Source: Trypanosoma brucei | Lineage: Eukaryota | Length of the DNA stretch: 64,000 nucleotides | Direction: 5' to 3' | Assembly: GCA_000002445.1 (NCBI GenBank) | Contig: CM000208.1 | Location: forward strand, 2,368,001 to 2,432,000 | Shown here: piece after piece, positions 2,153 to 19,127 of the stretch | How positions within the stretch are numbered: position 1 is the first letter of the stretch | How the letters are laid out: each line of letters begins with the position of its first letter | Translations under genes and position numbers: made by a program | The notes under the pieces: model-generated | What the model was told of the DNA's origin: nothing | Database searches by the model: none | What the model saw: the letters and a program-made list of their open reading frames with translations, nothing else

Positions 2153-2660
2153 CATTGTTTGCGTAAGGAAAGGAATATTTTTTCAAAGAGTAAAAACAAA
2201 TGCAACAGAAAAGGAACTTGTCGAGGAGGAGGTGGGCCCCGAGCAGAACACCTTTTTTCTCCACTTTTTTTCCTTCTATGGGGGTGGAGTTCGTTAGTTT
2301 GCCACCTTCAACATTCTTTTTGCTGTTTTCCTTCACTCTGTATCCCCTCACGTCTCAGTTTTTGCGGAGGATCACTACTGCCTGTCTACCGAGAAGGAGG
2401 GGCACCAGTATGTTGGTATATGTGCAGTTGCATGGAGGGGAGGAAGTTAATGGTGGGCGCTACAAGGGTGAGAGGGTAAATTCTTTTTGCACTGCAGCGT
2501 CGGAGCGCCAAATTTCGGTACCGAGTAGAGAGGACAGCGAAATGCAACCGGAGTCGAGTCGCATCAATGTGCATCCACTCTTTATGCTTTTTCGATAGCC
2601 TGCGGGTTCATATGTCTCACAGCTTTTTGTTTCGTGAATTTTCGAGGATTGGTTTGCCAC

Positions 2661-2700
2661 TTCTATGCCATTTTTTTTTTTTCGTTTAGCCTACTTCGCA
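2661..2700 (+). promoter_or_regulatory. Polypyrimidine tract / probable trans-splicing (spliced-leader) acceptor signal upstream of the HECT ligase gene
   Basis: T-rich run (ccatttttttttttttcgtttagcctacttcgc) followed by AG dinucleotides within about 350 nt of the ATG at 3052. In kinetoplastids, polyY tracts direct SL addition and upstream polyadenylation. Confidence 0.5.
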
Positions 2701-3051
2701 TATAAGTGTGCATACGGAATGAGGTAATCATTCCTCTGTGTCGATGACAGACAACGCGGTCAGTGGTGTTGATATCTGTACAGGAACTGATGTTAGTGGT
2801 TTATCACACATGGGGTGACATACCTGTGATGTGCTCACTTAAGTATGTGCGTTTTCTTTTTCTCTTTTCCCTTTCATATTTGCACTTTCTTTTTGTATAT
2901 TGACGGCTGTGACGACCTCACACATTTTGGAGTGTACGGGTCAGCCTAGTGGAGCGTGGCGCTGGGCCAGGTAACGGAAGGAACGCGGGAAGGCATTCGA
3001 ACCCCATAAAACGCGACTGGTAGCGGCACTTAGTGGTTTTAGCTTAACACC

Positions 3052-6000
3052 ATGGACGAAGAAACCACATTTCCACCTCAACAACAAGGGAAAGCGCTGA
3101 TCTCAGAGCTACGGAGTGTAGTTAATGACTACAGAAATAGGAAAACCGTGGAGGCTCGCGAAAAAATTATAGCAGCGATGGACAACACTTGTGCCTCTCT
3201 CTGCTTTGGTGATGAGGGGTTCATCCGCAACTTGAACCCTTGCAGTTTGGCGTCTGCTTTAGTTGCTGTCCTAACAAGTACTCTCGCAACTGATTACCCG
3301 GAGGTCCAATGCCTCGCGGTGCAGGCGCTGGCACTTGTGGCAGATCTTGTGCCACGAGGTGGTTTTGCTGTTGTAGCTGCAAGGGGTGTACAACCACTCC
3401 TGCTCCTCCTAAAGGAGCTGGATGCGTCAGAAAGCACGACACTGGAGGAGTTGTTGAGGTGTTTGACAAATCTCGCTTTTGAGGCTCACGAGCAGTTAAT
3501 GCAACACCAGGCATTTTCTGTTATTGTTTCCATTGAAAGGCGATTGGAAACTCATCGACTGCGTATGATGTGCCTCAAGTGTCTGTCACATCTTCTCACA
3601 TTGACCTCACCGGAAGAATGGAACATATATCTGTCCAAACCGTGTAGCTCGTTGATGGCAACATTTCATGAGGCGGTGACAAGACTTATGAAAGATGATT
3701 GTGCAGGTGATCGTCTGTCAAAAGACGACGAGGCTTATCTGCTGCGACTCCTCGAGTGTGTTGCATTAACGTTTGATAGGGTGCTGTGTTCGGCGAAAAT
3801 GATCGACAGGAACAGCAGGATGGTAGAGCAGCTTGTTTCGTCTCTCGTAGTGGTTATTAATGGAGCTGCTTCCATGGGTTCGCGCGGCACCGCCCTGCGT
3901 AATGCTGCGTGTTCGCCCCTTCTTACCCTTCTGTTCACAGACCCGGCTGTTACAGTGAGGATATTTCTTAAATGCCACGTGTTAGATTCTATATACAGTA
4001 ACATTTCTGGGCTACTCGAAAAGAGGCCGAAACAGGCTTCTTACAATGGCGCAGCCGTGATCTCTGCTCTCATGGAAGAGGATCTGACGGCCGTGCCGAG
4101 CGTAGCTGAGGAACAAAAGGTCATTCCCCTGCTAGAGTTTCTTCTAGTAGTTATGCCACCCTCATGCACTGCAAGTGATTGCGATTATTACACCACCTTA
4201 CCACACTATATTTGGCAGTGGGAAGATGACTTTCATAACTGGTGTGACTGCACCGAAGACTTAAGCAAACGACTAGAGGGGGAGTACATAAAACAGCGGC
4301 GACTCTCAGGATACACAGTTTTTGAAGTTTCTAATGCAACATCTACACTGAAGATTAACTTTTCTACCATGCGATACAGAAGCAGCGAAAGCCTGCACTA
4401 CCCTCACAACATTAGCCGTCGTCCATCTATTGCCGGATATATTTACCGGCGACCCATACGATGCCAGTGCGACGTTAAAGTTACACCGAACTCTTCATTG
4501 CCCGTCGAGGTGGCGTTGGGCAGGTTGGTTTCTCTCGGGGCAGGCACCACGACGGTTCTCGACGGTGAACCCGCCGTGGTGTCGGCCGGGGTACCGACGG
4601 GAAATGCGCATAGCAACGAACAATCTTATTGTGAAAGTGCATCATATAGTTTTGGCAACATCGCTGCTCCCTCGTCTTCGAACCAACCTTCAAGGGGTCA
4701 CGGGGCACATAATGGTGGTGTTGTGGAGGAGCGTGGGAGCCATTGCTGTTGTGTCAGCGTTTTGAGGTCACTGTTTCGTAAGTTGAAGGGTTCAGGACGT
4801 TCAACCGCAGTTCCCGAGGCCGGAAAATATGGTGCAGGGTCAGCGCTTACATCCTACGAAGTACTCGACGATGTTAGAGTGGAGCTTCTGCGCTGTGCTG
4901 CAACTCGTTCCAATTTCTTGCAGGAGCGGATGATCTACAGAATAATCCAACAGTATCTTCCAATTCTTATGCGTGTTGTGGATAGCACAGCCAATCTTAT
5001 CATCGTACGCCACTGTTCAGTACTGATTTTGCGCTGCGTTGACTTGGTGATAGGTTACTTTCGCTCAGGTGGGAGGGACCAGGGTCAACCTACCAGGACT
5101 CTCTGGGGCTTGTTTTGTGCCTTGGGCCCAAGTCTTGCGACGTCATTGTCCTATCTGACAACTTCCAGCACGACTCACGGATCGCTGACGCTATCGGCAG
5201 CACCCTTCAGGGAATTCCGGTGCGGTAGTGCGTTTGTGCTCGCGTTGTCAGCTTTAGACGTGACAGTTGGAACCCGGTTACCAGCAATGAATCTTGCTTG
5301 TGAAACTCAGCTGACCTCATTGAGTGCCCTGATGATGCTTTGCAGTCTCTGCCCCATAGGCGTGAAGGCGCTGACGAAGCAGCAGTCGCTCGCGTTATTG
5401 TGGAAACTGGAAAGGATTACTGGTCCCGCTGAACGCAGTTCACAAGGTGGCGTCCACCTGTTGCTTGAAGGACATAGAGTCCCGCCGTGTCCCTTTCACA
5501 CGAAGGCACTGCAAATTGAGGAACTGCGCAGAACGCTGGTTCAGCAGCTTTGTTCGTTACTGTGGACAAATGCAAGGGCGGTAGATCAAATGTTGCCCTT
5601 CAAAAAATGTTGTTTGGACATATCTGGAGACGATCAACAGGATAGTCAGCTTGGGGATTCCGTCGCCATGGGTTCACCTGAGGGGAGTGTGTCACCGAGT
5701 GCCAGTTGCACGAGCCTCACGTATATTTCTTCCAGTGGCGATCTGGACGGTGACACACCGCGTTCTCGCAGCACTCAGGTGATTAAACGATTAACACGGA
5801 TCAATGAGTACATGAAAGAGCACAGTAATGATCTCCCCGTGTTCTTGTATGATCAGCCGGAGCTGCTGAAGGATCTCGCTAGTGCTTTGCGCAGTGCTGA
5901 TGTAAGGGAGGTGATTGGTTCAAAGATGAATGAGGTCTTTTCCCAACTGATAAAGAGTTTGCTCCGCACCATCTGCAAGTACACGGGAATTGGCAGACTA

Positions 6001-8658
6001 GAGGAACCCCGCGCCGTAGAGCGTCAGTATTCGCGGTTTCAACGCCGTACCCGACGCAACAGGACTATGTTGATGGTGGTTGACTACCTGTGGACGCCTC
6101 TTCGGGTGAATCTTGTTAATACCCCTGTTCAAGCAGGTAAGAAGAGGAGTTTGTCTAAATTCTTTCGCTTGCAGAAAGACTCCACCAATGCGGCTGATGC
6201 GGGCTCACCAAATGCTCAGGTGAGGGAATCAGTGTTAAGCGTACTCCCAACGACTCCATTGAGTTACATTGCAAAGTATATTATAATGCGGTTAAATGAA
6301 GCTTGCAACAACACGTGTGACCCCAAATCAGAGGACGCGGAGCAGCAGCGGCAGCAAGAATTAGCTGAGGAAAGTAATTTCGGGGCGACGTTAGCCCACC
6401 AGGAGGCAGCCGACACTCCAGTTGGTGTCAATGGCGGCGTTGGTGAAGAAACTGCACTGGGAGGCAACGTGATAAACTTTTTAAACCGCAGAGAGTCTAG
6501 GTTGTCGGATGCTTCGGATGCCGACGACGAGGAAAGCGTGACTTCTGGTGATGCATCTGAGTTTTCGGAAGGCCGCGACGGGGATTACTTAAGTGAACAT
6601 GTTCTCAGCACTGTGTCGGCAACCGTTTCTATGGTGCCTCAAGCGCCCTCAAATATTTGCAGTGGGCCTTTAGGTGGACTGAGGGCCTCACAAGTTGAAG
6701 GTAGCACTTCCACCACAATTACCATCGACAATGTTGTCTTCTTCTGCGGGGGCAAGCCCGTAACAGACTTAAGCATATCCGTTTTAGACCTTTGTGGGAG
6801 TTCCTATTGTCAAGCTTCTGGTTGGTCCGATCTCCACCAGAGTGATTCCGACGAGAATTGCGGTGATAATGCACCTGTACGACACACTAGTGGTGAACGA
6901 CTTCACTACTTGATGAAAAATGTGCTTTCACTGTGGTCATCTGTACATACAATTAACTATTCCATTGTAGGAATGCGTGCCAATGAAGAGCGACGCGGTA
7001 CAGATGGCGAAGAGGTGTTGGATATGAATGAAAATTCCCCGGTCGAAGTTTTTTCTCGTTTGTCGTACTCCCCCAGAGGAACCCCATTTTTGTGGGCTGC
7101 GGCGGACCTTCTGAATGAAATGGGCCAGTTAGTGCGCGCTGCAGGTGGTGCTCTCTCCATGGATGATCCACTGGTGTCGAGCGCTTTGTTCCATGAATTC
7201 TACAATCACTTTGGTGTGTTGATGTTGCCCGCACTCGCGTATGGTATTATCCACGCCTACCTGGCGGATCAGCAGGACCGTTATCTCATTAGCTCCGTCC
7301 TTTGGAAGTACCCACAAACTTTCAGCTACGAAATTAGGCGGACACTGCTGCATTTGCTACTTTCAGTCCGACGTATACACACGCCAGCAATAGTTAAGTT
7401 GAAAGAATGGGCGTCAGGCTCAAGTCCCATACCTCCTGTCCAGGGTTTAGAATGGCTACGGCCCGATTTGAACATGCGTGGAACTTACAGGGTTCGAGTG
7501 CAGAGGTTTAACATTTTTGAGAGCGGCGCACGTGTGCTTCGTCGTCATGCAATGTGTCCACTTACGCTAAGTGTGGAGTTTGAGAATGAGCTTGGTGTTG
7601 GGGCGGGACCTGCAGTGGAGTTCTATAATTTATTGGCGAGGAAATTTCAAGACGTGCAACTTCACATGTGGCGCACAGAGGAATTCACCGATGAATCTGC
7701 TAAAACCGCGCGGCGCGTTCAACTCCCGCTGTTCCCTTCACTATTTCAGGATGACGAATCGCTTTCCAATTTTGAGCTCCTCGGGATGTTAGTGGGACGG
7801 GTGCTAATGGAGGAACGTGTGGTGGACCTTCCGCTGAGTGAGTGCTTTCTTCGTGGCATTCTAGGAGACTTGGATGACACTAACCGGCTGCCATATATCG
7901 ATCCCCAACTCGATAAGCAGCTGGATTCATTGCTTAAACTCACGGCCAATGAACTAGAGGAATGCGAACTAATGTTCGTAATTCAGCACGGGGACGCGGA
8001 GCACAACGGGGGTATTGTAGAACTCTGCCCTAACGGGGCCACAACTCAGGTTTCTGCTATGAATGTCAATGAGTATGTTCAGGAGGTGCGGCGGTACTAT
8101 TCGAAGACGGCCCTCGCACGGCCCGTCTCGCATTTCATCCAGGGACTCCGGTATACACTTATTCCTTACCATCTGCGACTCTTTGATGCCAGAGAGCTCC
8201 AGCTTGTCATATCGGGACCCGAAGGGAAGATATGGGAAAGTGCAGGAGACCTTCTGACCGTCATTACAACTAACCACGGTTATGACAAAAACTCCCTGGT
8301 TGTGGCTTATTTTGTGGAAGTGGTTAGCAGCTGGGATGTTTCTCTACAGCGGTCCTTCCTGCGCTTTGTGACGGGCTCCACTCGCATTCCCATAGGAGGA
8401 CTGCGACCCCCCATAACAGTGGTACGTCGTTCGGTGGAGGTGGCTCCCGGAGAGGCCACAAACCAGTTGGATACTACAAACAACTTTCTGATGGACGATC
8501 GAGCTGAGGTGTTACAAAACCTAATGGACGCCTCACTTCCTACCGTGAACACATGTGCGCACTACCTTAAACTTCCAAACTATAGTTCAAAGAAAATACT
8601 GGAGGAGAGGCTGAAATTGGCCATAACAGAGGGACAGGGTACATTCTCGCTAACGTAG
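3052..8658 (+). CDS. HECT-type E3 ubiquitin ligase, TRIP12/UFD4-like, with N-terminal ARM/HEAT-like repeats, a WWE domain and a C-terminal HECT domain
   Basis: The C-terminus ...NTCAHYLKLPNYSSKKILEERLKLAITEGQGTFSLT is the canonical HECT tail with catalytic Cys, about 4 residues from the end (HECT domain about nt 7579-8658). YIWQWEDDFHNWCDCTEDLSKRLEGEYIKQRRLSGYTVFEV... (about nt 4201-4432) fits the WWE-domain pattern (W..W..E, R..Y). The 1868-aa length and helical-repeat N-terminus fit TRIP12/UFD4 architecture. Confidence 0.8.
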   Translation: MDEETTFPPQQQGKALISELRSVVNDYRNRKTVEAREKIIAAMDNTCASLCFGDEGFIRNLNPCSLASALVAVLTSTLATDYPEVQCLAVQALALVADLVPRGGFAVVAARGVQPLLLLLKELDASESTTLEELLRCLTNLAFEAHEQLMQHQAFSVIVSIERRLETHRLRMMCLKCLSHLLTLTSPEEWNIYLSKPCSSLMATFHEAVTRLMKDDCAGDRLSKDDEAYLLRLLECVALTFDRVLCSAKMIDRNSRMVEQLVSSLVVVINGAASMGSRGTALRNAACSPLLTLLFTDPAVTVRIFLKCHVLDSIYSNISGLLEKRPKQASYNGAAVISALMEEDLTAVPSVAEEQKVIPLLEFLLVVMPPSCTASDCDYYTTLPHYIWQWEDDFHNWCDCTEDLSKRLEGEYIKQRRLSGYTVFEVSNATSTLKINFSTMRYRSSESLHYPHNISRRPSIAGYIYRRPIRCQCDVKVTPNSSLPVEVALGRLVSLGAGTTTVLDGEPAVVSAGVPTGNAHSNEQSYCESASYSFGNIAAPSSSNQPSRGHGAHNGGVVEERGSHCCCVSVLRSLFRKLKGSGRSTAVPEAGKYGAGSALTSYEVLDDVRVELLRCAATRSNFLQERMIYRIIQQYLPILMRVVDSTANLIIVRHCSVLILRCVDLVIGYFRSGGRDQGQPTRTLWGLFCALGPSLATSLSYLTTSSTTHGSLTLSAAPFREFRCGSAFVLALSALDVTVGTRLPAMNLACETQLTSLSALMMLCSLCPIGVKALTKQQSLALLWKLERITGPAERSSQGGVHLLLEGHRVPPCPFHTKALQIEELRRTLVQQLCSLLWTNARAVDQMLPFKKCCLDISGDDQQDSQLGDSVAMGSPEGSVSPSASCTSLTYISSSGDLDGDTPRSRSTQVIKRLTRINEYMKEHSNDLPVFLYDQPELLKDLASALRSADVREVIGSKMNEVFSQLIKSLLRTICKYTGIGRLEEPRAVERQYSRFQRRTRRNRTMLMVVDYLWTPLRVNLVNTPVQAGKKRSLSKFFRLQKDSTNAADAGSPNAQVRESVLSVLPTTPLSYIAKYIIMRLNEACNNTCDPKSEDAEQQRQQELAEESNFGATLAHQEAADTPVGVNGGVGEETALGGNVINFLNRRESRLSDASDADDEESVTSGDASEFSEGRDGDYLSEHVLSTVSATVSMVPQAPSNICSGPLGGLRASQVEGSTSTTITIDNVVFFCGGKPVTDLSISVLDLCGSSYCQASGWSDLHQSDSDENCGDNAPVRHTSGERLHYLMKNVLSLWSSVHTINYSIVGMRANEERRGTDGEEVLDMNENSPVEVFSRLSYSPRGTPFLWAAADLLNEMGQLVRAAGGALSMDDPLVSSALFHEFYNHFGVLMLPALAYGIIHAYLADQQDRYLISSVLWKYPQTFSYEIRRTLLHLLLSVRRIHTPAIVKLKEWASGSSPIPPVQGLEWLRPDLNMRGTYRVRVQRFNIFESGARVLRRHAMCPLTLSVEFENELGVGAGPAVEFYNLLARKFQDVQLHMWRTEEFTDESAKTARRVQLPLFPSLFQDDESLSNFELLGMLVGRVLMEERVVDLPLSECFLRGILGDLDDTNRLPYIDPQLDKQLDSLLKLTANELEECELMFVIQHGDAEHNGGIVELCPNGATTQVSAMNVNEYVQEVRRYYSKTALARPVSHFIQGLRYTLIPYHLRLFDARELQLVISGPEGKIWESAGDLLTVITTNHGYDKNSLVVAYFVEVVSSWDVSLQRSFLRFVTGSTRIPIGGLRPPITVVRRSVEVAPGEATNQLDTTNNFLMDDRAEVLQNLMDASLPTVNTCAHYLKLPNYSSKKILEERLKLAITEGQGTFSLT

Positions 8659-9999
8659 CAGGTATATGTATATGTGTGCGTGTAGTCGTCCACGAGGACA
8701 AACTACAGAAAGTTGGTATGGTGCATTATAGCTAATGTGGGGTGGAGTGAGTGCGAGTGCGATCAGCTGGAGGGACAGGAAAAGTAAGAATGAGGAAGAA
8801 TACAAGTATGGGAGCATGTGTATCAACTTATTGGGGTGATGTGTTGTTGTCATAGTGCCGTTATTTTGCTTGTTCTGGTTTCGATTGGGATATGTAAGTG
8901 ACACATCATTTGGGAAACCGCACGTGAAACTGTGATTTCATCTCCAATTTTTTTTTCTGGACATCACTATTCAGCGCGTGAGCGTCATCCCGCTCCCGCC
9001 ACAGTCCTTTCTCTCTCCCTCTTTGTTTCTTCACAGCCGTTTCTGTCAATTAGCTCCCAGCGGTACGTCGATGGTGTGTTATTTACTCTCCATGGCTTCC
9101 TTTGTGATTAACACAATCACCAGAAATGCTTTGTTTTTGTCTTTGGTCCGACGTTGGTGGGAAATGGAAGGGAACGTTGGCGCCATGACCTCTGCTACTT
9201 AAATAGTATTGTTTTCCTTTTTTTTTTCCTCCTTTTGTGTGTGTGTGTGCATGTATGTATGTGTTTTCTTTGCCAGATTGTATTATTCATGTGTAGGAGT
9301 GAAGATAATGCGGGTATTGTGTTATACCAGCTATCCGCTACAGGATGTGCGAAAAGTAAGTGAATGGAGCGAGTAGCGGTGAGGATTGTTGTGCCGAGTT
9401 TGAGCTTTTTATTATTGTTATTATTATTGTTATTAACTCTGTGAGAACTCACCCCTTTTCCTCCCTCGGGTTAACGTAAAGAGGAGAGAAGCAACCAGCA
9501 ACCCACAGTGTCGTGGGATGTGAAGTTCGAGAAGTGAATTGAAGGGGAAAGATACAAGGCCCTCAACTCCCGTTCACTGAGCAGAACAAAGCAGGGAAGA
9601 TACAACACCTCCATAAGGTTATTTTGATGCTAAACCTATTGTTCCTGTTGTGTTGGATTTGAAGTTTAGCAACTTTGAGTAGTACCAATGAATGAGTTCA
9701 GACTTTTCATCTTGTAATTGTTGTCGCTCGTTTTAATGATGTTGTTTAGTGCAACTCTTCACAAGGTGGTGGAGGTTGAAAGGTGAGCGTGTAAAAATGG
9801 TAACAGTGCCCAAATTCTCAATTGTGTATGAATGTAGGTTGTGTTCTGTCGATGTGAATCAGCTGCCAGCAAACGGAAACGTGGTGTATTCCAAGGGTTA
9901 GAGCAGCCTGGAAAAAAAAAATTCAAAAAAAAAAAAGAAGAACGTTGGTGTGTCTTCAACTATATGTAAATAAATAAATATAAATAAATTAATTAATAA

Positions 10000-10026
10000 A
10001 TATATATATATATATATATATATATG
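10000..10026. repeat. (TA)n dinucleotide microsatellite
   Basis: atatatatatatatatatatatatat read directly. Preceded by an (AAATA)-like AT-rich stretch from about 9965. Confidence 0.9.
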
Positions 10027-10459
10027 CATGTGTGTTTATGTGCAAACTTGTACCTACAGGTGCATGCACACACAAACATATGTGCGACATTTGCACATTG
10101 TTTAGCGGTAGAGGGGATGGAGAAAAGAAGAAATGCAAGAAAAGAAAAAGAGAAAAAGAGAAAAGCACAAATGGAAACAAGTAATTAATAAAAAGAAAAT
10201 GACGATACTACACTTTGTGCCCATTCACTGTTGTTGGATTTGCTTTGAAGTGACGAAGGCAATTGGTGCGTGAAGTCCCCTTTGGTCTTGAGGTGACTGC
10301 TCTCACCCACAAGATCTGTTTTTTTTTTTTCTTCTGACTCTCTCCTTCTTATTTCCCTTTTTTCTCTTTGCTTTCTTCGGGTAATCTCGTTTTTTTCCTT
10401 TTTTTTTCTTCTTTGTTGGAAACAACAAATCACGGAAACGAAGTCAACGGCATTAATAA

Positions 10460-10487
10460 TAATAAGTATAATAATTATTATTATTAA

Positions 10488-10533
<46 letters not shown>

Positions 10534-10540
10534 TATATAC
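10460..10540. repeat. (ATT)n trinucleotide microsatellite, about 20 units, followed by a short (TA)n
   Basis: attattattattaatattattattattattattattattattattattattatatatatatatatac read directly. Confidence 0.9.
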
Positions 10541-11515
10541 ATAAAAAAAAATCACCTGGTGTAGTATTTCCATCCCCTTTTTCTTATTTTACGAAATATT
10601 TGGTGGGTTCTGAGTTTGGAAGGAAGTGATATCAGTGACTGGTTTGTTCCCTTCTGTCCTTTTTTTTATTTTCTGTCTTTTGTTTTTTTTTTCCTTCGTC
10701 GACTATTATGTTGTCTGGAAAAGGAGTGACGAAGCGCGGAAGCATGCGATAGGACGAGGGACTTTCGGTAATCTGTTTTTTTTTTCAATCACCTGCTGTT
10801 GCTCCCTGTTATTCGACGATGGAGCAGGGAAAGTTGCGTGTGTTTGTGTCTGTAAGGAAAAAAAAGCTGTGGTAAATTCGGTTGATAAATTTCTCCTCCA
10901 TTCCGCGCGGCAGTTAACAACAATAAAAAAAAATTTTCTGCTCCTTGGGCTTTGACGCCTCAATGCTTGCGCTTCTATCTTGTATAACCACCTGTTCGCG
11001 CTGTTCAATTAAAGAAAAAAAAATGGTGGTGGTGGTATTTGTTTCTCTTTCTCTTTCTTTTTCCCCCTCCACTCCCTCCCTCTTTTCAGCCGCTGCACCA
11101 TCTATTGGAGTATAATAAAAGGTGAGAGTAAACACCTTCCCTTGTTTTTTTTTCTGAGCATTCCGCGTGTTCCTACATTTGTGGTTGTATATATGTACAT
11201 GCACAATGATGGTAAGATGGTTGTGCTGTTCCTTAAAGAAGGGAGGTGTCTCCACACGAATTGCTTCTTATGTAATGTTTTTAGCTGTTATTCCCCTTGT
11301 TGATGTGCTACGCATTCTGGAGTCTTTATATATCTTCGTGTTTTGTGCTATTTGCCAATGTGTAACATCTGTGTTTGCTACATCTTCTTCTTTATAAATA
11401 GTCTGGTTTCATTAGTCACAGTTTCCTCATTGAAGGGAGAGAGAGGCACTTGCAGGAGGAAGAGATAGTGACTCAGGGATTGTGTTTTTTGAAGGTGGAA
11501 TAAAGTGCTAGGAAG

Positions 11516-12571
11516 ATGCTGCTCACAAAACTTGCGCCCATGAGGTCTGCAGCACGTCACATGCCGTTACTGTGCATCCCACTTCATACCGCTCGTCACA
11601 CTGCCACTGTGGGTGCGAGCGGCGCCTCTGGGCGTGTAGGGGAGGACCACCGCCACAGTTCATTGGAAGAGACTTTACTTCATCCTCCTTTCATTGGTTC
11701 GTCTTCACGCTTCACGTATGCCTTACCTGCTTTAGACTCCGATGATATAGCGGCTTTGGAGAGGGAAACACTTAACCATCACGAACCAAACTGCTGGAAC
11801 GACTACTGCTGTGTCTCCCTTGTGAAACTGCTCCGCTGGTGTGCCGATAAGTTATTCCGTGAGCGTTACATTCACAGGGCTACAATGTTGAAAGCGATTG
11901 CGCCTGCACCGGCGATGGCTGGGGCCATCGTTGCCAACCTGCGGATGTATTTGAGGAAAAAGGACGCGACATATTTGCCAAGTGACGGCAACTTTTCGTC
12001 AGAGGTTCGAGTGCTAATGGCGCAGATGGAGTCCCACGCCGCACATGTCAATATCCTCTTGTCAATGTGCGAGATAACGACCGTTGAGCGCGTCGCCGCC
12101 GTTCTTCTTTATGGGCTTCATTATTTCATATTTACCCTTCTATTCCTCCTGTATCCGCGAATGGCGTTTCGGCTTATGGGTTACCTTAACGAGGAATCCG
12201 TAGTTATTTGGACGCACATGATAAACGACGTAGAGTTGGGGAAGATTGTTGAGCGACCAATACCTCGTGCGGCGCTTCAGTACTGGGGACTTCATCGTTT
12301 CCACCACCGCCAGAAACAACAATCTCATACAAAGAGCTATGTCACAGAAAAAGAGGAAGAGGGTAGGAGGGTCATGCATAACAATGAAGCCTCTTCTGCC
12401 AACCCCAGTGGTGACGGTGCCGCAGAGAATGGAGGGGAGGATGGAGATGTGTCGAAGCGTGGACTTACGCTGCGTTATATGCTGCTGTTATTGCGCTCGG
12501 ATGAGATGGTCTGGCGCGACTCATGCCACGCGGCTGCGGACGCTATAGACGAAATGCACGAGGTGCAATAA
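11516..12571 (+). CDS. Alternative oxidase (AOX/ubiquinol oxidase) fold protein with apparently degenerate diiron ligands (AOX-like)
   Basis: Four-helix-bundle AOX motifs align with trypanosome alternative oxidase: TMLKAIAPAPAMAGAIVANL vs FLETVAGVPGMVGGMLRHL; LMAQMESHAAH vs LVEAENERMH; GYLNEESVVIWTH...YWGL vs GYLEEEAVITYT...YWNL; LRSDEMVWRDSCH vs IRADEAEHRVVNH. Predicted mitochondrial presequence (MLLTKLAPMRSAARHMPLL). Confidence 0.65.
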   Translation: MLLTKLAPMRSAARHMPLLCIPLHTARHTATVGASGASGRVGEDHRHSSLEETLLHPPFIGSSSRFTYALPALDSDDIAALERETLNHHEPNCWNDYCCVSLVKLLRWCADKLFRERYIHRATMLKAIAPAPAMAGAIVANLRMYLRKKDATYLPSDGNFSSEVRVLMAQMESHAAHVNILLSMCEITTVERVAAVLLYGLHYFIFTLLFLLYPRMAFRLMGYLNEESVVIWTHMINDVELGKIVERPIPRAALQYWGLHRFHHRQKQQSHTKSYVTEKEEEGRRVMHNNEASSANPSGDGAAENGGEDGDVSKRGLTLRYMLLLLRSDEMVWRDSCHAAADAIDEMHEVQ

Positions 12572-13104
12572 AACTTTGTTAACGCTTGTTCCTTCGTTTT
12601 CTTATCTTGGCTCTCGCGGGACGTTAGGCGATACATCCACCAACGGGGCAGGGGAGGGGGACATTTGCCCTGCTGTCGAGTTGCTTGGAGGAATTATGGT
12701 GTGACATAGTCTGTCGTTTTTGTTATTCACACAACTACCGCCCCGTTTTAACGAAGCACACAAACTGCGACCCGAATGCTATGAAGGTCAGAGAAGGAAA
12801 AGAAATAGTTGATGGGAGACGTATTATTTCTCAATAGTTTGTCTCTAGTGCAAATTTTCTCTCACATTTCTTTACACCGTGTAATATATACGTATACATG
12901 TGCGTATGTCATCTTTTATTAGACCGCCACCCCCCCCCCCATGCTGGTGGTTTGCCTTCTGGGGGTACTGTGTTCAAGTGTCACCTTCCGCATCCCACAT
13001 TATTGTGTAGCCACTCTCTTCGGGGCATCTTCTCCGTTAAATTTTGCAGTGACGAAAAAGGGTTTAACGTTGGGTCGTAGCTTACAGGTGGTGTTAGGGC
13101 TACC

Positions 13105-15459
13105 ATGACGACCCACTTGTGGGCAAATTTTGTTACATCCCTGGAGTCCCGTGGCATCTCATTTCAGCACGTGCAACACGCATCTGACCGGAGTGCCGTA
13201 ATTTCAGCGGCAGGCTTTGGGGACCCCATTAGCGTTGCTATTTTGGAGACGGAATGGATGAAGCGTTGTGCACCCACCAGCACCCAACATGCTTCACCCG
13301 TGGGCGTATCCGACAAGGGCGCATTTGCCCCTCCACCTCCTCTCCAAGCGCCACAGACTGCTGCGGCAACCGTGAGCAGTCCCACAAGGCTCGCCCCCCA
13401 GTTTTCTGACCACACGAAACTGGAAGACGTTCCCGAGGAAATTCAAGATCGTGTCATCACAGCGGAGGTACTAGCCGCAGCCGTCGGCAACGGTGGCTCG
13501 CTTTTGCAGGCATCACGGGACGGTTTCGTGGTATCGAGATATGTGCCCGTTTCGATGCGCGGCCTCTGCAAGACCATAGTTCCCATCGCAGACTCTTTCG
13601 TAGCGCTACGGAAAGTTGAACGTGCAGAGTATATGGGAAAGAGCCTTGTTGCTATGGCTCTGGGTGAAGCGGTATCAGAAATTTGCACCAGTTACGCACA
13701 CGAGATTGCAAACCTGCAGAGGTGGTCCCAAAAGAAAGCAATGCCGCTGATGGGGGTCGTCTCAGAAGTTCTTCGTGCCGGCCACCACATCGTGCGGTTG
13801 CGGCAGGTACTGCCCACAGATTCAATTCTGGAGGAAGAAGGAACACTCTCCATGGCTGGGTGGCGGTTGCTCAACCACATCCATGAACAGGCTGAAAAAC
13901 ATTCGGGAAGCAGGGAGGACGATGAATTGCTGAACTTGTTACTTAGACGAGCATCAGTACCATACCTGCGGGTGTTGCACAGGTGGGTGCACGAGGGAGT
14001 AGTTGAGGACCCGTACGGAGAGTTTTTCATATCAGACGCATCCCTCCCCACTGGAGCAGCATCCACTACCACCGCAGCACCAGTTTCTGCTGTGGCAGGT
14101 ATGAAAAAGAGTGCAGTGAGGCGCATATTTCCCCCGTGTGGCGGAGGAGGCGACGATTACGGCGAGACAGGAATGGATGATGCGCATGCCTTTGAACGGC
14201 GCTTCTCGATGAATAAGAACATGGTTCCTAATTTTATTCTCACAAACACAAAGATGGCGAAGATAGTGTTCTATACCGGCAAATACTGCTGCCTGCTGCG
14301 GGAGTACAACGGCGCTCTCCCATCGTTCGGGGAATTATCGAACCAAATACTTATATGGTCTGGTGTTGACGAGTTGCATCGGCGTATAGAGGAGTCATAT
14401 GAAATTGCGAGTGGAGAGGTGTTACAGTTGTTTCTGGGACCGCAGGTCGATCTTTTGGGGCACCTTACATCGTTGAAGAGTTATTTCTTGCACCAACGTA
14501 GCGACTGGCTGATCGATTTTTTAGACAGTGCTGAGGAACTTCTCCTGAAGTCACCTTTTCAGGTGAAGGCGCATTCCGTTCGCGTGTTACTCCAAGCAGC
14601 AATCGCTAGGTGCTGTGGGAAAGACTTGTACCATACTCTCATTGGATGCAGCTTCTCGGGCACAACTGTTGCACAAGACATTATCAACTCACACGAACGG
14701 CAGAACGACGAGTCCCCTCAACGCGCATCCACAAACGGCAGGAGGAGCGCCACGCGTATTGAGACACGTTGTTGTATAGAGCTGCTTCAACTTGAGGCTG
14801 ACCTAAAATGGCCACTCACAATGGTCATTGACCCCCCTGTTCTTGAGCAGTTCAACATCGTCTTCCGTCTTTTCACGTGGCTGAAAACCTGTGAACGGGA
14901 CGTTACCACGTCGTGGACGGGGGATACCGATTTGGATCCTCACTACCAGCGTGCATATATCATTAAGCATCAACTCATTCAGTTCATCAGGCAATTTCAG
15001 TTCTATGCAGCACATTTCGTTGTGGAGCCGCTTTGGGGTCGGATGATGAATCGGATATGCCAGGCTGATAGCATTTTCGCCGTAAATAGTGCATTGAAAG
15101 ATTTCTTCAAGGGTATCGAGCTTGGTCTGGTGCTTTCTAGCGCCACTCGTTTCCGTAGTCTCGCACGTATTCTGGAGATAGCCTCCGTTTTCAGTGAAAC
15201 AGGGAGACCAGGTGCGGCCCAGGGGCTTAGCGAGCAACGGCTGCAGGAAATATTACAGGATGTGGAAACGCAGTTTCTTAAAGCTCTTTCCGAGCTCGCT
15301 TCCCCTGTGGGAGCCGACTATCCACAACTTGTGCCGCTTTTGACGTGGATTGACTTCAGCGGCTATTACGACCGCAACGGAGTATACCGCGTGCTGTACT
15401 CCGCAAGTGCCGCTACCGAACCGGTGTCTTCCTCAGCCACGGACAGGCGAAAGCGTTGA
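13105..15459 (+). CDS. Gamma-tubulin complex component (GCP2/GCP3, Spc97/Spc98 family)
   Basis: GRIP-motif region LQLFLGPQVDLLGHLTSLKSYFLHQRSDWLIDFLDSAEELLLKSP matches GCP2 ...[30 protein letters not shown]. N-terminal FILTNTKMAKIVFYTGKYCCLLREY matches GCP PSFL..A.KIL.TGKYLNVIR. A C-terminal GRIP2-like helical region is present. 784 aa. Confidence 0.65.
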   Translation: MTTHLWANFVTSLESRGISFQHVQHASDRSAVISAAGFGDPISVAILETEWMKRCAPTSTQHASPVGVSDKGAFAPPPPLQAPQTAAATVSSPTRLAPQFSDHTKLEDVPEEIQDRVITAEVLAAAVGNGGSLLQASRDGFVVSRYVPVSMRGLCKTIVPIADSFVALRKVERAEYMGKSLVAMALGEAVSEICTSYAHEIANLQRWSQKKAMPLMGVVSEVLRAGHHIVRLRQVLPTDSILEEEGTLSMAGWRLLNHIHEQAEKHSGSREDDELLNLLLRRASVPYLRVLHRWVHEGVVEDPYGEFFISDASLPTGAASTTTAAPVSAVAGMKKSAVRRIFPPCGGGGDDYGETGMDDAHAFERRFSMNKNMVPNFILTNTKMAKIVFYTGKYCCLLREYNGALPSFGELSNQILIWSGVDELHRRIEESYEIASGEVLQLFLGPQVDLLGHLTSLKSYFLHQRSDWLIDFLDSAEELLLKSPFQVKAHSVRVLLQAAIARCCGKDLYHTLIGCSFSGTTVAQDIINSHERQNDESPQRASTNGRRSATRIETRCCIELLQLEADLKWPLTMVIDPPVLEQFNIVFRLFTWLKTCERDVTTSWTGDTDLDPHYQRAYIIKHQLIQFIRQFQFYAAHFVVEPLWGRMMNRICQADSIFAVNSALKDFFKGIELGLVLSSATRFRSLARILEIASVFSETGRPGAAQGLSEQRLQEILQDVETQFLKALSELASPVGADYPQLVPLLTWIDFSGYYDRNGVYRVLYSASAATEPVSSSATDRRKR

Positions 15460-16490: not shown

Positions 16491-19127
16491 ATGTCACTGA
16501 AGAAGAAGACGCTAAAGCAGCGTCTTCGTAAGAATGAAATGAGGCAACGGCAGAAGGTCTCCAAAGATGTTCGGAAGCGCGTGCGTACCGGTCGCCGTCA
16601 ATGCAATCGCTTCGACGACATTGAAAGCGGGTCACGGCCCCTTCAAGAGTTAGTCGAGGAAATAGCAGCAGGTTCGGCCGCCCCTACGCGTGAAGTGGCC
16701 TTAGACCCACGAAGCCTTACCGATCTACTCCTTCAAACTTCAGCTTCTCTCAGTAACACCAACAGTGGTGGTAAAACAGCAGCAAAACCTAATGTTGGCA
16801 GGGGCAACAGTGAGTCTGATGGTAAACCAAGATTAGTCCTTCCGGAGGCACCGCTTCCAGAGGACCATCCCCTCGCTCTGCCAGAGGTTCAACTCGGTGA
16901 AGACGAGCTGGGCGGTGGGAAGGACACTAACTCAGTTCCAGGGGGAAAAAATCAGTATCGGCACCACGGTGATCCGTACGTCTTCTGGGAGCGTGTTGGG
17001 CTTCATCCACTCCTTCTTAAAGCCTTGAGAACTATGCGTTTCACCCATCCGACTCCCGTTCAGGAAGAGGTGCTTCCAAGTGTTCTCTCACAAAACGTTG
17101 ATGGTCGTGCAGTTGGAGGGAAAGAAAAGATTACCCCTGGAAAGGGCAAGTCTGGAGGACGTGGTTGGGAAAAAGATGTTATCATCTCTGCGGAGACTGG
17201 AAGTGGAAAGACTTTGGCCTTCGCAATCCCTATTCTGCAACATGTTTTGACCAACGTGCTGGTGAATGAAGTAACGCAAGGTCCGGACGGGAAAATTGGA
17301 AACGAGGAGACGGCGAATGCAGCAAAGGGAAAGGAGGGTAAGGGGAAAAAAACAAAAGGTGGAGGAAAATCTACTGAAAGGGGGAAAAGTGAAAGCTTTA
17401 AAAAAAGTCGAAAGCGGCTGCGCGAAGGAGAGGAGGAAGGGGAACAGCTCACTACAGCACCTCCCACAACTACCTTCAAACTTCAAGGTCGGCTCATGCA
17501 AGCGCTGATTGTTTCACCAACTCGTGAGTTGGCACTCCAAATTAGCGAGGCGATGCAGCAGCTTGTACAACACGCTCCTCAGGTTATCGTTGGTTGTGTT
17601 GTTGGTGGCATGGCACCAGAAAAGCAACAACGTGTGCTCAACCGCCACCCGCATGTTCTCATATGCACACCAGGTCGCCTCTGGGAACTGATGCAAAAGA
17701 ACGAGGGATGCTATTTGGGTCACAGCCTCAGCCGACGCCTTTCTTATGTAGTTCTTGATGAAGCCGATAAGCTCCTGCAGTCCGGTCGTTTCGAGGAGCT
17801 GAAAAATTTGCTGGAGCGTATCCACTGCGAAATATTACCCGCCGGTTACGTGCAGGAGCGGGAGGAAGGGGCGGAGGCGGGAGATGCAGAGCTTGAGGCC
17901 GGTTTTTGGGATGCGGAAAAGCAGAAGTTTGTGCCTTTTCCAAAGGATTCTCCCACTGGCGACGACGATAAGAAGGAAACGCCTCAGCTAAGGACTTCCA
18001 GGAAGGATGAGCCCCGCCTCATTCCAATGCCGCCAGATCCACCGGAAGGTCATCGCGTCACAACGTTTGTTACTAGTGCAACACTTTCGCTTCAAACAAA
18101 CTATGTGCGGAGAGACATGCGCGCCAAGAAAACTGTGATCCGTACCTCCAATGAAGACACAATGGGGAAAGTGTTACAGCAGTTGGAAATAAAGCCTTCA
18201 AACGCCCACGTCTTCACTATTTCACCCAAAGTTGATGTTGCCGCCAAAATACATGAGACGTACCTTCGTTGTCCCGGGGACAGTAAAGACCTTTATTTGT
18301 ATTATTTCCTCAAGATGTACCGTGAGAGGTCGATTGTGTTTGTTAATGCCATATCTATGCTTCGTCGCCTTGTAAAGTTGTTAGAAGTGTTGGGCATACC
18401 TGTGGCTGGTCTGCACGCTTCACTTCAGCAACGGCAGCGGCTAAAGTTCATTGACAAGTTTAGAAAGGGCGAGAAGCGTGTTCTGGTGGCTACCGACATC
18501 GCCTCTCGCGGGTTGGACGTGGAAGGAGTTCGGTACGTGGTTCACTTTCAGGTTCCGCGTTCTACCGATGCTTACATCCACCGCTGCGGTCGCACAGCAC
18601 GGTGTGGAGGGACTGGTCTTTCTCTTCTTATGGTAAATGCGCAAGAACATGTCTCATTTACAAAGCTAATGGGCTCTCTCGGGCGCAGCACTGGCGATTT
18701 GGAAGTGTTTGCACTTCAACCAACCATCGTTCATCAACTGCATGCACATCTAAAAGTAGCTTTGCAGATTGATAAGCTGCAAAAAGAGATTGACAAATCA
18801 AGGGCAAATAATAATTGGGCGCGCCGCATGAGCCGTGAGGCCGATGTGGATGTCGACGATTTGATCGACGATGACGCAGACACTGAAAATAAGGCGAAGG
18901 AAAAAGCAATCAAGATACTACGTAGACGTCTGATGCTTCTAGGAGAAAAAGATATGGGGACGTCAGGTGGAAAAGGAAGTTTCCGCAGCAGCGCCCAGGC
19001 GATAGGCGCAAAGCAGGCCGAATCCAAGCTTGTTGAACGTGCTCAACTGCAGGTTACTCAGAAGCCTAAGAAAGGGTCCAAGGTTGTGAAGAAAGCTGGA
19101 GCCCGAAAAAATACAGAGAAGGAGTAG
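16491..19127 (+). CDS. DEAD-box ATP-dependent RNA helicase, DDX24/MAK5-like (nucleolar type) with large charged insertions
   Basis: Contains Q-motif region (FTHPTPVQ), motif I AETGSGKT, Ia SPTRELALQ, Ib TPGRL, II VLDEADKLL (DEAD), III SAT, V/VI VATDIASRGLDV and HRCGRTAR. Basic K/R-rich N-terminus and K/E-rich C-terminus are typical of nucleolar helicases. Long inserts between motifs I-Ia and II-III match the DDX24/MAK5 pattern. Confidence 0.8.
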   Translation: MSLKKKTLKQRLRKNEMRQRQKVSKDVRKRVRTGRRQCNRFDDIESGSRPLQELVEEIAAGSAAPTREVALDPRSLTDLLLQTSASLSNTNSGGKTAAKPNVGRGNSESDGKPRLVLPEAPLPEDHPLALPEVQLGEDELGGGKDTNSVPGGKNQYRHHGDPYVFWERVGLHPLLLKALRTMRFTHPTPVQEEVLPSVLSQNVDGRAVGGKEKITPGKGKSGGRGWEKDVIISAETGSGKTLAFAIPILQHVLTNVLVNEVTQGPDGKIGNEETANAAKGKEGKGKKTKGGGKSTERGKSESFKKSRKRLREGEEEGEQLTTAPPTTTFKLQGRLMQALIVSPTRELALQISEAMQQLVQHAPQVIVGCVVGGMAPEKQQRVLNRHPHVLICTPGRLWELMQKNEGCYLGHSLSRRLSYVVLDEADKLLQSGRFEELKNLLERIHCEILPAGYVQEREEGAEAGDAELEAGFWDAEKQKFVPFPKDSPTGDDDKKETPQLRTSRKDEPRLIPMPPDPPEGHRVTTFVTSATLSLQTNYVRRDMRAKKTVIRTSNEDTMGKVLQQLEIKPSNAHVFTISPKVDVAAKIHETYLRCPGDSKDLYLYYFLKMYRERSIVFVNAISMLRRLVKLLEVLGIPVAGLHASLQQRQRLKFIDKFRKGEKRVLVATDIASRGLDVEGVRYVVHFQVPRSTDAYIHRCGRTARCGGTGLSLLMVNAQEHVSFTKLMGSLGRSTGDLEVFALQPTIVHQLHAHLKVALQIDKLQKEIDKSRANNNWARRMSREADVDVDDLIDDDADTENKAKEKAIKILRRRLMLLGEKDMGTSGGKGSFRSSAQAIGAKQAESKLVERAQLQVTQKPKKGSKVVKKAGARKNTEKE

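What the first reader, a model, noticed from the sequence alone, without database searches (positions are those of the whole stretch)
11516..12571. Alternative-oxidase-fold gene with substituted diiron ligands: candidate AOX pseudoenzyme
The protein aligns helix by helix with trypanosome alternative oxidase. In TAO numbering, iron-ligand positions E123, E162 and H269 appear replaced. Helix 1 reads LKAIAP where TAO has LETVAG (E to K). The helix-2 ExxH register is shifted (MESHAAH vs ENERMH). Helix 4 reads DEMVWR vs DEAEHR (H to W). E213 (LNEES vs LEEEA) and E266 are retained. A carboxylate-bridged diiron centre is unlikely to assemble with a Lys and a Trp at ligand positions, so this looks like a catalytically dead AOX paralogue rather than a terminal oxidase. 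It keeps a mitochondrial presequence and the membrane-facing YW motif.
Basis: partly seen in the sequence, partly recalled or inferred. Interest (0 to 1): 0.55.

Follow-up and report, generated by a model that had tools for sequence, protein, structure and literature searches.

The report
Known inactive alternative-oxidase-like protein (AOX-L)
This trypanosome gene encodes a protein with the alternative oxidase shape that has lost most of the residues holding the two catalytic iron atoms; it is real and conserved, but it is the "AOX-like" protein already described in kinetoplastid parasites, and its function is still unknown.

Summary
The ORF at 11516-12571 (+, 351 aa) is real. It is an unambiguous AOX-family protein: Pfam PF01786 E=7.6e-56, and the AF2 model superposes on trypanosome alternative oxidase (TAO) with TM 0.70.

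A 163-sequence alignment fixes the ligand map. E123->K126, E162->H174, H165 kept (H177), E213->N225, Y220->W232, E266 kept (E330), H269->W333. Only 2 of 6 iron ligands survive, and the catalytic Tyr is gone.

- E213 is not retained.
- There is no helix-2 register shift.
- The Pfam accession is PF01786, not PF01083.

The gene is not decaying. Orthologues are intact from Trypanosoma to Leishmania, with dN/dS 0.18. The gene order (proteasome ATPase, HECT ligase, AOX-L, GCP) holds even in two distant environmental kinetoplastid-like contigs.

It matches the kinetoplastid AOX-L (also called AOX2 or TAO-like; Tb927.10.9760), described as catalytically inactive in bioRxiv 10.64898/2026.09.27.754813.

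Most likely it is a mitochondrial, membrane-bound, non-enzymatic AOX-fold protein that acts independently of AOX. Its exact role is unknown.

Verdict: already known; modest interest.

The parts
11516..12571 (+). AOX-L coding sequence (351 aa plus stop). An AOX-fold protein, orthologue of Tb927.10.9760.
   Evidence: ORF; Pfam PF01786 E=7.6e-56; orthologues in Trypanosoma and Leishmania; fold match to TAO.
11516..11704 (+). N-terminal region, aa 1-63. A basic, hydroxyl-rich stretch with no acidic residue before position 43, taken as a putative mitochondrial presequence, followed by poorly conserved linker.
   Evidence: Composition count; pLDDT below 50 for residues 1-63; variable among orthologues. 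Targeting is inferred and was not run through a predictor.
11891..11893 (+). Codon K126, at the position of iron ligand E123 of TAO. Variable in AOX-L: K, V, T or L.
12035..12046 (+). H174-A-A-H177, the former ExxH motif. E162->H174; H165 kept as H177.
   Evidence: Both His are invariant in the 16 named orthologues. In the syntenic environmental orthologue P0052 they are R and Q.
12188..12190 (+). Codon N225, at the position of iron ligand E213. It is N, G or A in trypanosomatid orthologues.
12209..12211 (+). Codon W232, at the position of catalytic Y220. W is invariant in trypanosomatid AOX-L.
12299..12460 (+). Acidic, low-complexity loop (aa 262-315) inserted between the last two long helices. 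Canonical AOX has no equivalent.
   Evidence: pLDDT below 50 for residues 288-314, and block means below 60 from about residue 261. HMMER splits the TAO match into two domains around this loop. Its length varies among orthologues. The AOX-L preprint also reports it.
12500..12514 (+). D329-E330-M-V-W333, the former second ExxH motif. E266 kept as E330; H269->W333 (W, Y or F in orthologues).

Best explanation
The gene encodes the kinetoplastid AOX-like protein (AOX-L, also called AOX2 or TAO-like; the Tb927.10.9760 orthologue). It is a nuclear-encoded protein, probably imported into mitochondria, that keeps the alternative oxidase architecture, including the long hydrophobic helices that anchor TAO in one leaflet of the inner membrane.

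Three of the four iron-binding glutamates, one of the two histidines and the catalytic tyrosine are replaced by K, H, N, W and W. It therefore cannot build the carboxylate-bridged diiron centre and is not a ubiquinol:O2 oxidoreductase.

It is held under purifying selection as an autonomous, non-enzymatic membrane protein, with a binding, scaffolding or regulatory role. Its function does not depend on canonical AOX, because it persists in lineages reported to lack AOX.

Shown here: family membership, fold, the ligand replacements, their conservation, orthology by synteny, and purifying selection. Inferred: mitochondrial import, membrane attachment and absence of catalysis. Unknown: the actual cellular role.
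For: - Family and fold: PF01786 E=7.6e-56. TAO is the only PDB family hit. The AF2 core has pLDDT 80-95, and Foldseek gives TAO at TM 0.70 and rmsd 2.9 A.
- Ligand map: in a 163-sequence MAFFT alignment, the canonical AOXs among the hits carry E/E/H/E/Y/E/H almost without exception. The window protein has K126/H174/H177/N225/W232/E330/W333 at those columns. The TAO numbering was verified independently.
- Ancient loss: no AOX-L or AOX-L-like sequence examined has Glu at positions 123, 162 or 213.
- More decay: other canonical near-invariant residues are also lost.
- Not a pseudogene: 16 intact orthologues share 62 invariant columns from Trypanosoma to Leishmania. dN/dS is 0.18 between T. cruzi and T. 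c. marinkellei.
- Orthology: the order proteasome-ATPase, HECT, AOX-L, GCP is conserved in the window and in two distant environmental contigs. T. cruzi has HECT, AOX-L and GCP, and T. c. marinkellei has AOX-L and GCP. In T. brucei the next gene identifiers, Tb927.10.9770 (GCP2) and Tb927.10.9780 (p97), match the window's downstream GCP and 878-aa helicase.
- Literature: AOX-L lacks E123, E162, E213, Y220 and H269. It keeps the fold and hydrophobic membrane surfaces and is enriched in the integral-membrane proteome fraction. It is predicted to form a homodimer but not a heterodimer with AOX, and it occurs in most kinetoplastids, including those without AOX (10.64898/2026.09.27.754813).
Against: - No activity, metal-content or knockout data exist for this protein, in what I could search or in the preprint. 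'Inactive' rests on sequence and structure logic alone.
- Three potential metal ligands at former site positions (H174, H177, E330) are invariant across the named trypanosomatid orthologues. The segments around them (AQxESHAxH, LLLRSDEMxxRD) are among the most conserved. That is more constraint than a pure scaffold obviously needs.
- Several residues I recall as lining the TAO quinol/inhibitor pocket are retained: R96, D100, R118, L122, A126, L212 and E215 map to R107, D111, R121, L125, A129, L224 and E227 (the residue list itself is from memory).
- Mitochondrial targeting was not tested with a predictor here.
Confidence: 0.82

Rival explanations
1. Repurposed metal site. In trypanosomatids the surviving H174, H177 and E330 (positions 162, 165 and 266) would form a 2-His-1-carboxylate-type mononuclear metal site, binding Fe, Zn or another metal. 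AOX-L would then be a new enzyme or a metal, redox or O2 sensor rather than an inert protein.
For: - H174, H177 and E330 are invariant in all complete named orthologues from Trypanosoma to Leishmania, and the flanking motifs are strongly conserved.
- They occupy homologous inward-facing positions of the four-helix bundle. This follows from the ungapped alignment to TAO and the fold match.
- Some deeper relatives also keep H269, which gives H/H/E/H: P0023, P0025 and P0027.
Against: - The site is not conserved across the orthologue family. The syntenic orthologue P0052 has R/Q/E at these positions. Others have Q/H/D, Q/Q/D or R/H/E, and one trypanosomatid-like sequence (P0020) has A at position 174.
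- The neighbouring positions are filled by bulky or uncharged residues (W232, W333, N/G/A225) and, in trypanosomes, by a Lys that could simply pair with E330.
- No coordinates were available to measure the geometry.
- The preprint's structural analysis reports a constricted substrate channel.
Confidence: 0.1
2. Prozyme-like regulator. The dead AOX copy would modulate canonical AOX, for example by heterodimerising with it, as the AdoMetDC prozyme does in T. brucei.
For: Trypanosomes have precedent for dead-paralogue regulators. The preprint raises the idea in its discussion. T. brucei encodes both AOX and AOX-L.
Against: - Orthologues are retained under constraint in T. cruzi, T. rangeli, T. 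theileri, T. grayi and Leishmania spp.. These lineages are reported to lack canonical AOX.
- Predicted AOX/AOX-L heterodimers have ipTM 0.12-0.13, against 0.63-0.84 for homodimers.
- AOX-L is not a recent duplicate of TAO: 68 bits for TAO against 124-149 bits for other AOXs with the same profile.
Confidence: 0.03
3. Still a terminal quinol oxidase. Non-canonical ligands (His for Glu, and so on) would build a different dimetal centre.
For: The overall fold, the hydrophobic membrane helices and several pocket residues are retained. Databases annotate orthologues as 'alternative oxidase'.
Against: - Only 2 of 6 ligands survive and Y220 is lost.
- Positions 123 and 213 vary among close orthologues between non-ligand residues: K/V/T/L and N/G/A.
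- Position 269 is W, Y or F.
- Leishmania, which carries AOX-L, is reported to have no AOX.
Confidence: 0.03
4. A decaying pseudogene or an annotation artefact.
For: The only support is the loss of catalytic residues.
Against: The ORF is intact in all species. There are 62 invariant columns across the Trypanosoma-Leishmania divergence, dN/dS is 0.18, and synteny is conserved. Transcripts at 20-31 TPM and proteomic detection are reported in the preprint.
Confidence: 0.01

Closest known systems
Kinetoplastid AOX-like protein (AOX-L; also AOX2 or TAO-like; T. brucei Tb927.10.9760), as described in bioRxiv 10.64898/2026.09.27.754813
   Same: It shows the same replacement pattern that the preprint reports: loss of E123, E162, E213, Y220 and H269, with H165 and E266 kept. 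It has the same AOX fold and the same unstructured loop before the last long helix. It is orthologous to the Trypanosoma and Leishmania proteins and has the same chromosomal neighbours (GCP2 downstream).
   Different: There is nothing substantive; this is that protein. The analysis here adds three small points. Two environmental, syntenic orthologues carry different residues at the former ligand positions. dN/dS was measured at 0.18. TAO is one of the more distant AOXs relative to AOX-L.
Trypanosome alternative oxidase (TAO/AOX, Tb927.10.7090; PDB 3VV9)
   Same: Same Pfam family (PF01786) and fold, with TM 0.70. Also conserved: the hydrophobic helix equivalent to TAO's membrane helix, the YW motif (Y246/W247), the RADE-like helix (RSDEM), and E160, H165, E214, E215, D265, E266, R270 and H274.
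   Different: Only about 20% identity. Five of the seven diiron-site residues are replaced. It carries an insertion of about 55 residues before the last helix. It lacks canonical invariant residues: Y198, the His at F218, a Gly and a Pro. It is not a close paralogue. No oxidase activity is expected.
Plastid terminal oxidase (PTOX) and other membrane diiron carboxylate proteins (for example COQ7)
   Same: They share the ferritin-like four-helix-bundle ancestry. There is a weak Foldseek hit to COQ7 (E=0.77).
   Different: Those proteins retain the full set of E/H ligands and are active enzymes. The window protein matches the AOX Pfam model specifically and lacks the ligands.
Trypanosomatid pseudoenzyme regulators (AdoMetDC prozyme)
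   Same: A catalytically dead member of an enzyme family, retained under selection in trypanosomatids.
   Different: The prozyme is a recent paralogue that heterodimerises with its active partner. AOX-L is an ancient separate lineage and is retained where no active AOX exists. It is predicted not to heterodimerise with AOX.

Membership tests
Alternative oxidase family (Pfam PF01786), structural membership | A significant match to the AOX profile across its full length, and an AOX fold | tested here: met
   189.6 bits against a cutoff of 22.7, covering profile positions 4-216 of 216. Foldseek's top 14 PDB hits are all TAO.
Functional alternative oxidase (ubiquinol:O2 oxidoreductase) | Six diiron ligands: E123, E162, H165, E213, E266 and H269 (two ExxH motifs plus two Glu) | tested here: not met
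   The window protein has K126, H174, H177, N225, E330 and W333, so 2 of 6 are kept. The canonical AOXs among the hits carry E/E/H/E/E/H at these columns almost without exception.
Functional alternative oxidase (ubiquinol:O2 oxidoreductase) | Catalytic tyrosine Y220 | tested here: not met
   W232 sits at this column. It is invariant W in trypanosomatid AOX-L, whereas 88 full-length canonical sequences all have Y.
Functional alternative oxidase (ubiquinol:O2 oxidoreductase) | Cyanide-insensitive, SHAM-sensitive ubiquinol oxidase activity | not testable with these tools
   This needs a biochemical assay. The preprint assumes inactivity and did not assay AOX-L itself.
Kinetoplastid AOX-L (AOX2 / TAO-like) | An AOX fold lacking E123, E162, E213, Y220 and H269 | tested here: met
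   Exactly these five are replaced. This matches the list in 10.64898/2026.09.27.754813.
Kinetoplastid AOX-L (AOX2 / TAO-like) | Orthology to Tb927.10.9760 and to the Trypanosoma and Leishmania AOX-L proteins | tested here: met
   Best hits are AOX-L proteins of T. congolense (59% identity), T. cruzi, T. rangeli, T. theileri, T. grayi and Leishmania spp.. The HECT-AOX-L-GCP gene order is shared with T. cruzi, with the DEAD helicase following after an Arf-like GTPase gene there. The GCP2 and p97 neighbours match Tb927.10.9770 and Tb927.10.9780.
Kinetoplastid AOX-L (AOX2 / TAO-like) | An extended unstructured loop between the last two long helices | tested here: met
   Residues of about 262-315 have low pLDDT and are absent from TAO.
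Kinetoplastid AOX-L (AOX2 / TAO-like) | Mitochondrial inner-membrane association and homodimerisation | not testable with these tools
   Only indirect evidence: a basic N-terminus and a hydrophobic helix at 189-212 equivalent to TAO's membrane helix. The proteomic and AF3 evidence comes from the preprint.
Recent paralogue of TAO (duplication-derived pseudoenzyme) | Closer to the same lineage's canonical AOX than to other AOXs | tested here: not met
   With the same AOX-L profile, TAO scores 68 bits. Fungal, algal, amoebozoan and bacterial AOXs score 124-149 bits. The published phylogeny agrees.

The most novel reading that the evidence does not exclude
In trypanosomatids, the three invariant residues left at the old diiron site (H174, H177, E330) form a mononuclear 2-His-1-carboxylate-type metal site. 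AOX-L would then be a repurposed metalloprotein, either a new enzyme or a metal, redox or O2 sensor at the inner membrane, rather than an inert pseudoenzyme. The environmental orthologues, some H/H/E/H and some fully degenerate, would record stepwise remodelling of a diiron site.
Probability: 0.1. Interest if true: 0.6.

Novelty: already known. Interest (0 to 1): 0.25.

Why it matters
AOX is a validated drug target in African trypanosomes, and many genome annotations label AOX-L simply 'alternative oxidase'. Knowing that this gene product cannot be a diiron oxidase prevents wrong metabolic reconstructions, such as crediting Leishmania or T. cruzi with an AOX pathway.

AOX-L is a well-conserved mitochondrial pseudoenzyme of unknown role across Kinetoplastea, so a functional study would be worthwhile. 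The observation itself is already published.

Tried and rejected
- Register-shift idea: I checked whether E172 could stand in for E162. Ungapped HMMER and MAFFT alignments put E172 at TAO E160, which canonical AOXs also conserve, and it lies two residues from the ligand column. Rejected.
- Pseudogene: rejected by conservation and dN/dS 0.18. The window against T. cruzi comparison is saturated at synonymous sites (pS 0.76) and so is uninformative. The window against the 99%-identical Logan contig has only 8 nucleotide differences, too few to interpret.
- Family-wide residual metal site: weakened by the syntenic orthologues P0023 and P0052, which differ at those columns.
- Coordinate-level inspection of the model was not possible, because the tool returns no coordinates.
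- A Foldseek search against AFDB50, meant to name the exact UniProt entry and organism, was unavailable.
- A word-index search with the profile of deep relatives returned only 5 proteins. It did not name the environmental lineages.
- The preprint's supplementary tables are not held.
- Literature searches for functional data on Tb927.10.9760 gave only table mentions: about 2-fold mRNA increase after heat shock, and co-listing with AOX. PMC9501172 was irrelevant.
- Rfam and tRNA scans of the window found nothing.
- The 2.9-kb gap upstream of the gene holds no ORF of 250 aa or more.

Full report
**What is there**

The window carries an ATG-initiated ORF of 351 codons at 11516-12571 on the + strand. 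All 22 ORFs of 250 aa or more lie on the + strand. The neighbours are functionally unrelated housekeeping genes:
- a proteasome-type AAA ATPase (926-2152);
- a HECT ubiquitin ligase (3052-8658);
- a gamma-tubulin complex protein (13105-15459);
- a DEAD-box helicase (16491-19127);
- a TPR protein and an M3 peptidase.

This is the layout of a trypanosomatid polycistronic unit. No Rfam family or tRNA occurs anywhere in the window.

Yes. The only solved structures it matches by sequence are those of trypanosome alternative oxidase (TAO): E about 1e-11 alone and 9e-18 with a profile of orthologues.

An AlphaFold2 model built on 16 orthologues has a confident helical core, with block pLDDT of 80-95 over most of residues 80-260 and 320-345. 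The N-terminus (1-63) and an internal loop are disordered. The 14 significant Foldseek PDB hits are all TAO chains, at TM about 0.70 on target length and rmsd about 2.9 A.

**The ligand map**

I reconstructed TAO numbering from the HMMER alignments. It puts E, E, H, E, Y, E, H at the published positions 123, 162, 165, 213, 220, 266 and 269.

I then aligned the window protein with 162 relatives from an exhaustive profile search of 1.84 billion representative proteins. The canonical AOXs among them show E/E/H/E/Y/E/H at those columns almost without exception. The window protein shows K126 / H174 / H177 / N225 / W232 / E330 / W333.

| TAO residue | Window residue | Status |
|---|---|---|
| E123 | K126 | replaced |
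| E162 | H174 | replaced |
| H165 | H177 | kept |
| E213 | N225 | replaced |
| Y220 | W232 | replaced |
| E266 | E330 | kept |
| H269 | W333 | replaced |

Two details were wrong:
- There is no register shift in helix 2. H174 sits exactly on E162, and the Glu in 'MES' is TAO E160, which canonical AOXs also keep.
- E213 is not retained. It is N225, and the two following glutamates are E214 and E215.

Several other residues that are near-invariant in canonical AOX are lost too: Y198->F210, a universally conserved His->F218, Gly->A133 and Pro->I187. The YW motif (Y256/W257, equal to TAO Y246/W247) is indeed conserved.

**Orthologues**

Sixteen close homologues were found, in T. congolense (59% identity), T. 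cruzi, T. c. marinkellei, T. rangeli, T. theileri, T. melophagium, T. conorhini, T. grayi and five Leishmania species (32-35% identity). All are intact and share 62 invariant columns.

At the former ligand positions:
- position 123 is K, V or T (L in Angomonas);
- position 162 is H;
- position 165 is H;
- position 213 is N, G or A;
- position 220 is W;
- position 266 is E;
- position 269 is W, Y or F.

dN/dS between T. cruzi and T. c. marinkellei is 0.18 (dS 0.19, dN 0.035). The gene is therefore under purifying selection and is not a decaying pseudogene.

**Synteny and deeper relatives**

Between the trypanosomatid AOX-L proteins and canonical AOXs, the profile search recovered about fifteen unnamed sequences from Logan, ENA and JGI assemblies (P0022-P0035, P0052, P0063). 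They have eukaryote-like N-termini.

Two of them sit on long contigs. In both, the AOX-L-like gene follows a proteasome AAA ATPase (77-79% identical to the window's) and a HECT ligase. In one it is followed by the GCP gene. T. cruzi and T. c. marinkellei share the same order. These are therefore positional orthologues from distant, presumably kinetoplastid, organisms.

Their former ligand columns differ. P0023 has I/H/H/S/L/E/H. P0052 has S/R/Q/A/F/E/S. Other relatives show Q/H..D, Q/Q..D or R/H..E. None of the AOX-L-type sequences has Glu at 123, 162 or 213.

My reading is that the three glutamates were lost at the base of the AOX-L lineage. The remaining site residues have since drifted in a lineage-specific way. 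That fits a site that no longer binds a dimetal cofactor.

**Relationship to TAO**

AOX-L is not a recent duplicate of TAO. With one and the same AOX-L profile, TAO scores 68 bits. The best canonical AOXs score 124-149 bits. They come from a scattered set of organisms: zygomycete and other early-diverging fungi, a Pseudomonadota MAG, Galdieria, Chara, Cavenderia and Cyanophora.

**What is already known**

This is the protein that the trypanosomatid literature calls AOX2, TAO-like or AOX-L. A 2026 preprint (10.64898/2026.09.27.754813) reports the following:
- Most kinetoplastids encode AOX-L, and many have it without canonical AOX.
- AOX-L lacks E123, E162, E213, Y220 and H269, plus about half of the quinone-pocket residues.
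- It keeps the AOX fold and hydrophobic membrane surfaces, and is enriched in the integral-membrane proteome fraction.
- It is predicted to homodimerise but not to heterodimerise with AOX (ipTM 0.12-0.13).
- It forms a lineage separate from kinetoplastid AOX.
- Its function is unknown.

T. brucei papers list Tb927.10.9760 as a second 'alternative oxidase' beside Tb927.10.7090. The next identifiers, Tb927.10.9770 (GCP2) and Tb927.10.9780 (p97), match the window's downstream GCP (784 aa) and 878-aa helicase. I infer that the window is from T. brucei or a very close relative. A 99%-identical copy exists in a Logan assembly, and the next closest named orthologue is T. congolense.

**How it most likely works**

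Shown:
- AOX fold;
- loss of 4 of 6 ligands and of the catalytic Tyr;
- ancient, conserved loss of the three glutamates;
- purifying selection;
- orthology by synteny.

Inferred:
- Import into mitochondria, from the basic, acid-free N-terminal 42 residues.
- Monotopic membrane attachment, through the hydrophobic helix 189-212 that aligns with TAO's membrane helix.
- Inability to assemble the diiron centre, and hence no ubiquinol oxidase activity.

AOX-L is retained in AOX-less lineages, and heterodimers are not predicted. A prozyme-like role as an AOX regulator is therefore unlikely. The best-supported statement is an autonomous, non-enzymatic membrane protein with a binding, scaffolding or regulatory role. 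It is not a subunit of any solved kinetoplastid complex, since only TAO was found in the PDB at E<=1.

The main residual alternative (about 10%) is that the invariant H174/H177/E330 trio forms a mononuclear metal site in trypanosomatids. The non-conservation of these residues in syntenic environmental orthologues argues against it as a family property. It does not exclude it for trypanosomatids.

**Verdict**

The feature is already described, so novelty is 'already known' and interest is modest (0.25).

The small additions here are:
- the corrected ligand map;
- the dN/dS estimate;
- the demonstration that environmental positional orthologues carry different, further degenerated site residues;
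- the observation that many database orthologues are mis-named.

Noticed in passing
Orthologues P0003, P0005, P0006, P0007, P0010: NCBI names the AOX-L orthologues of T. cruzi marinkellei, T. rangeli, T. theileri, T. conorhini and T. grayi 'GTPase activating protein of Rab-like GTPase'. Their only Pfam domain is PF01786 (AOX). This looks like a propagated misannotation. Others are named plain 'alternative oxidase', which overstates their function.
   Followed up: partly
L001 710-8948; L002 777-12372; window 926-15459: Two environmental contigs conserve the gene order proteasome AAA ATPase, HECT ligase, AOX-L, and in L002 also GCP. They are ENA ERZ23486787 scaffold_4469 (GC 0.55) and JGI 3300062241 Ga0606263_077 (GC 0.62). 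Intergenic spacers are only about 130-350 bp, against 0.5-2.9 kb in the window. L002 has two extra genes (a 205-aa ORF and a Pet191_N protein) between AOX-L and GCP that the window lacks. The source organisms are unidentified, presumably free-living or otherwise distant kinetoplastids.
   Followed up: partly
window 8659-11515: An unusually long gap of 2.9 kb separates the HECT gene from AOX-L. It is AT-rich (GC about 0.41 for 10001-12000), with no ORF of 250 aa or more, no Rfam hit and no tRNA. It is presumably long UTRs and trans-splicing or polyadenylation signals.
   Followed up: partly
P0008 (alignment columns 400-564): One close homologue (324 aa, MetaClust only, 61% identical) ends inside the acidic loop. 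It lacks the whole last helix, including the DEM(V)W motif. This could be a truncated gene model, an assembly gap, or a real C-terminal truncation in that species.
   Followed up: no
P0012-P0017 (alignment columns 201-260): Leishmania orthologues carry an insertion of about 60 residues between two bundle helices, and a much longer acidic loop before the last helix, giving 476-486 aa against 351. The AOX-L preprint also notes this.
   Followed up: no
P0018 and P0020: The Angomonas deanei AOX-L is modelled with an N-terminal extension of about 200 aa (569 aa). An unnamed Logan protein (703 aa) has a 295-aa extension and Ala at the otherwise invariant H174 position. These may be wrong start codons, gene fusions, or real variants.
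   Followed up: no
L003 (Logan ERR7929156_6383) against window 11412-12858: A 1447-bp Logan contig covers just the AOX-L gene, from 104 nt upstream of the ATG to 287 nt past the stop. It shows 8 nucleotide and 5 amino-acid differences in the CDS: E52G, M134L, D157H, L211F and S294Y. Its extent resembles an mRNA-derived contig, but no spliced-leader sequence is present at its 5' end.
   Followed up: partly
window 12929-12942: A homopolymer run of 14 C lies in the AOX-L / GCP intergenic region.
   Followed up: no
PMC8312217 against 10.64898/2026.09.27.754813: A 2021 proteomics paper reports orthologues of both Tb927.10.7090 and Tb927.10.9760 in the Phytomonas serpens NADH-dehydrogenase gel band. 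The 2026 preprint states that Phytomonas encodes only AOX and no AOX-L. The discrepancy is unresolved; it may reflect two canonical AOX copies assigned by best hit.
   Followed up: no
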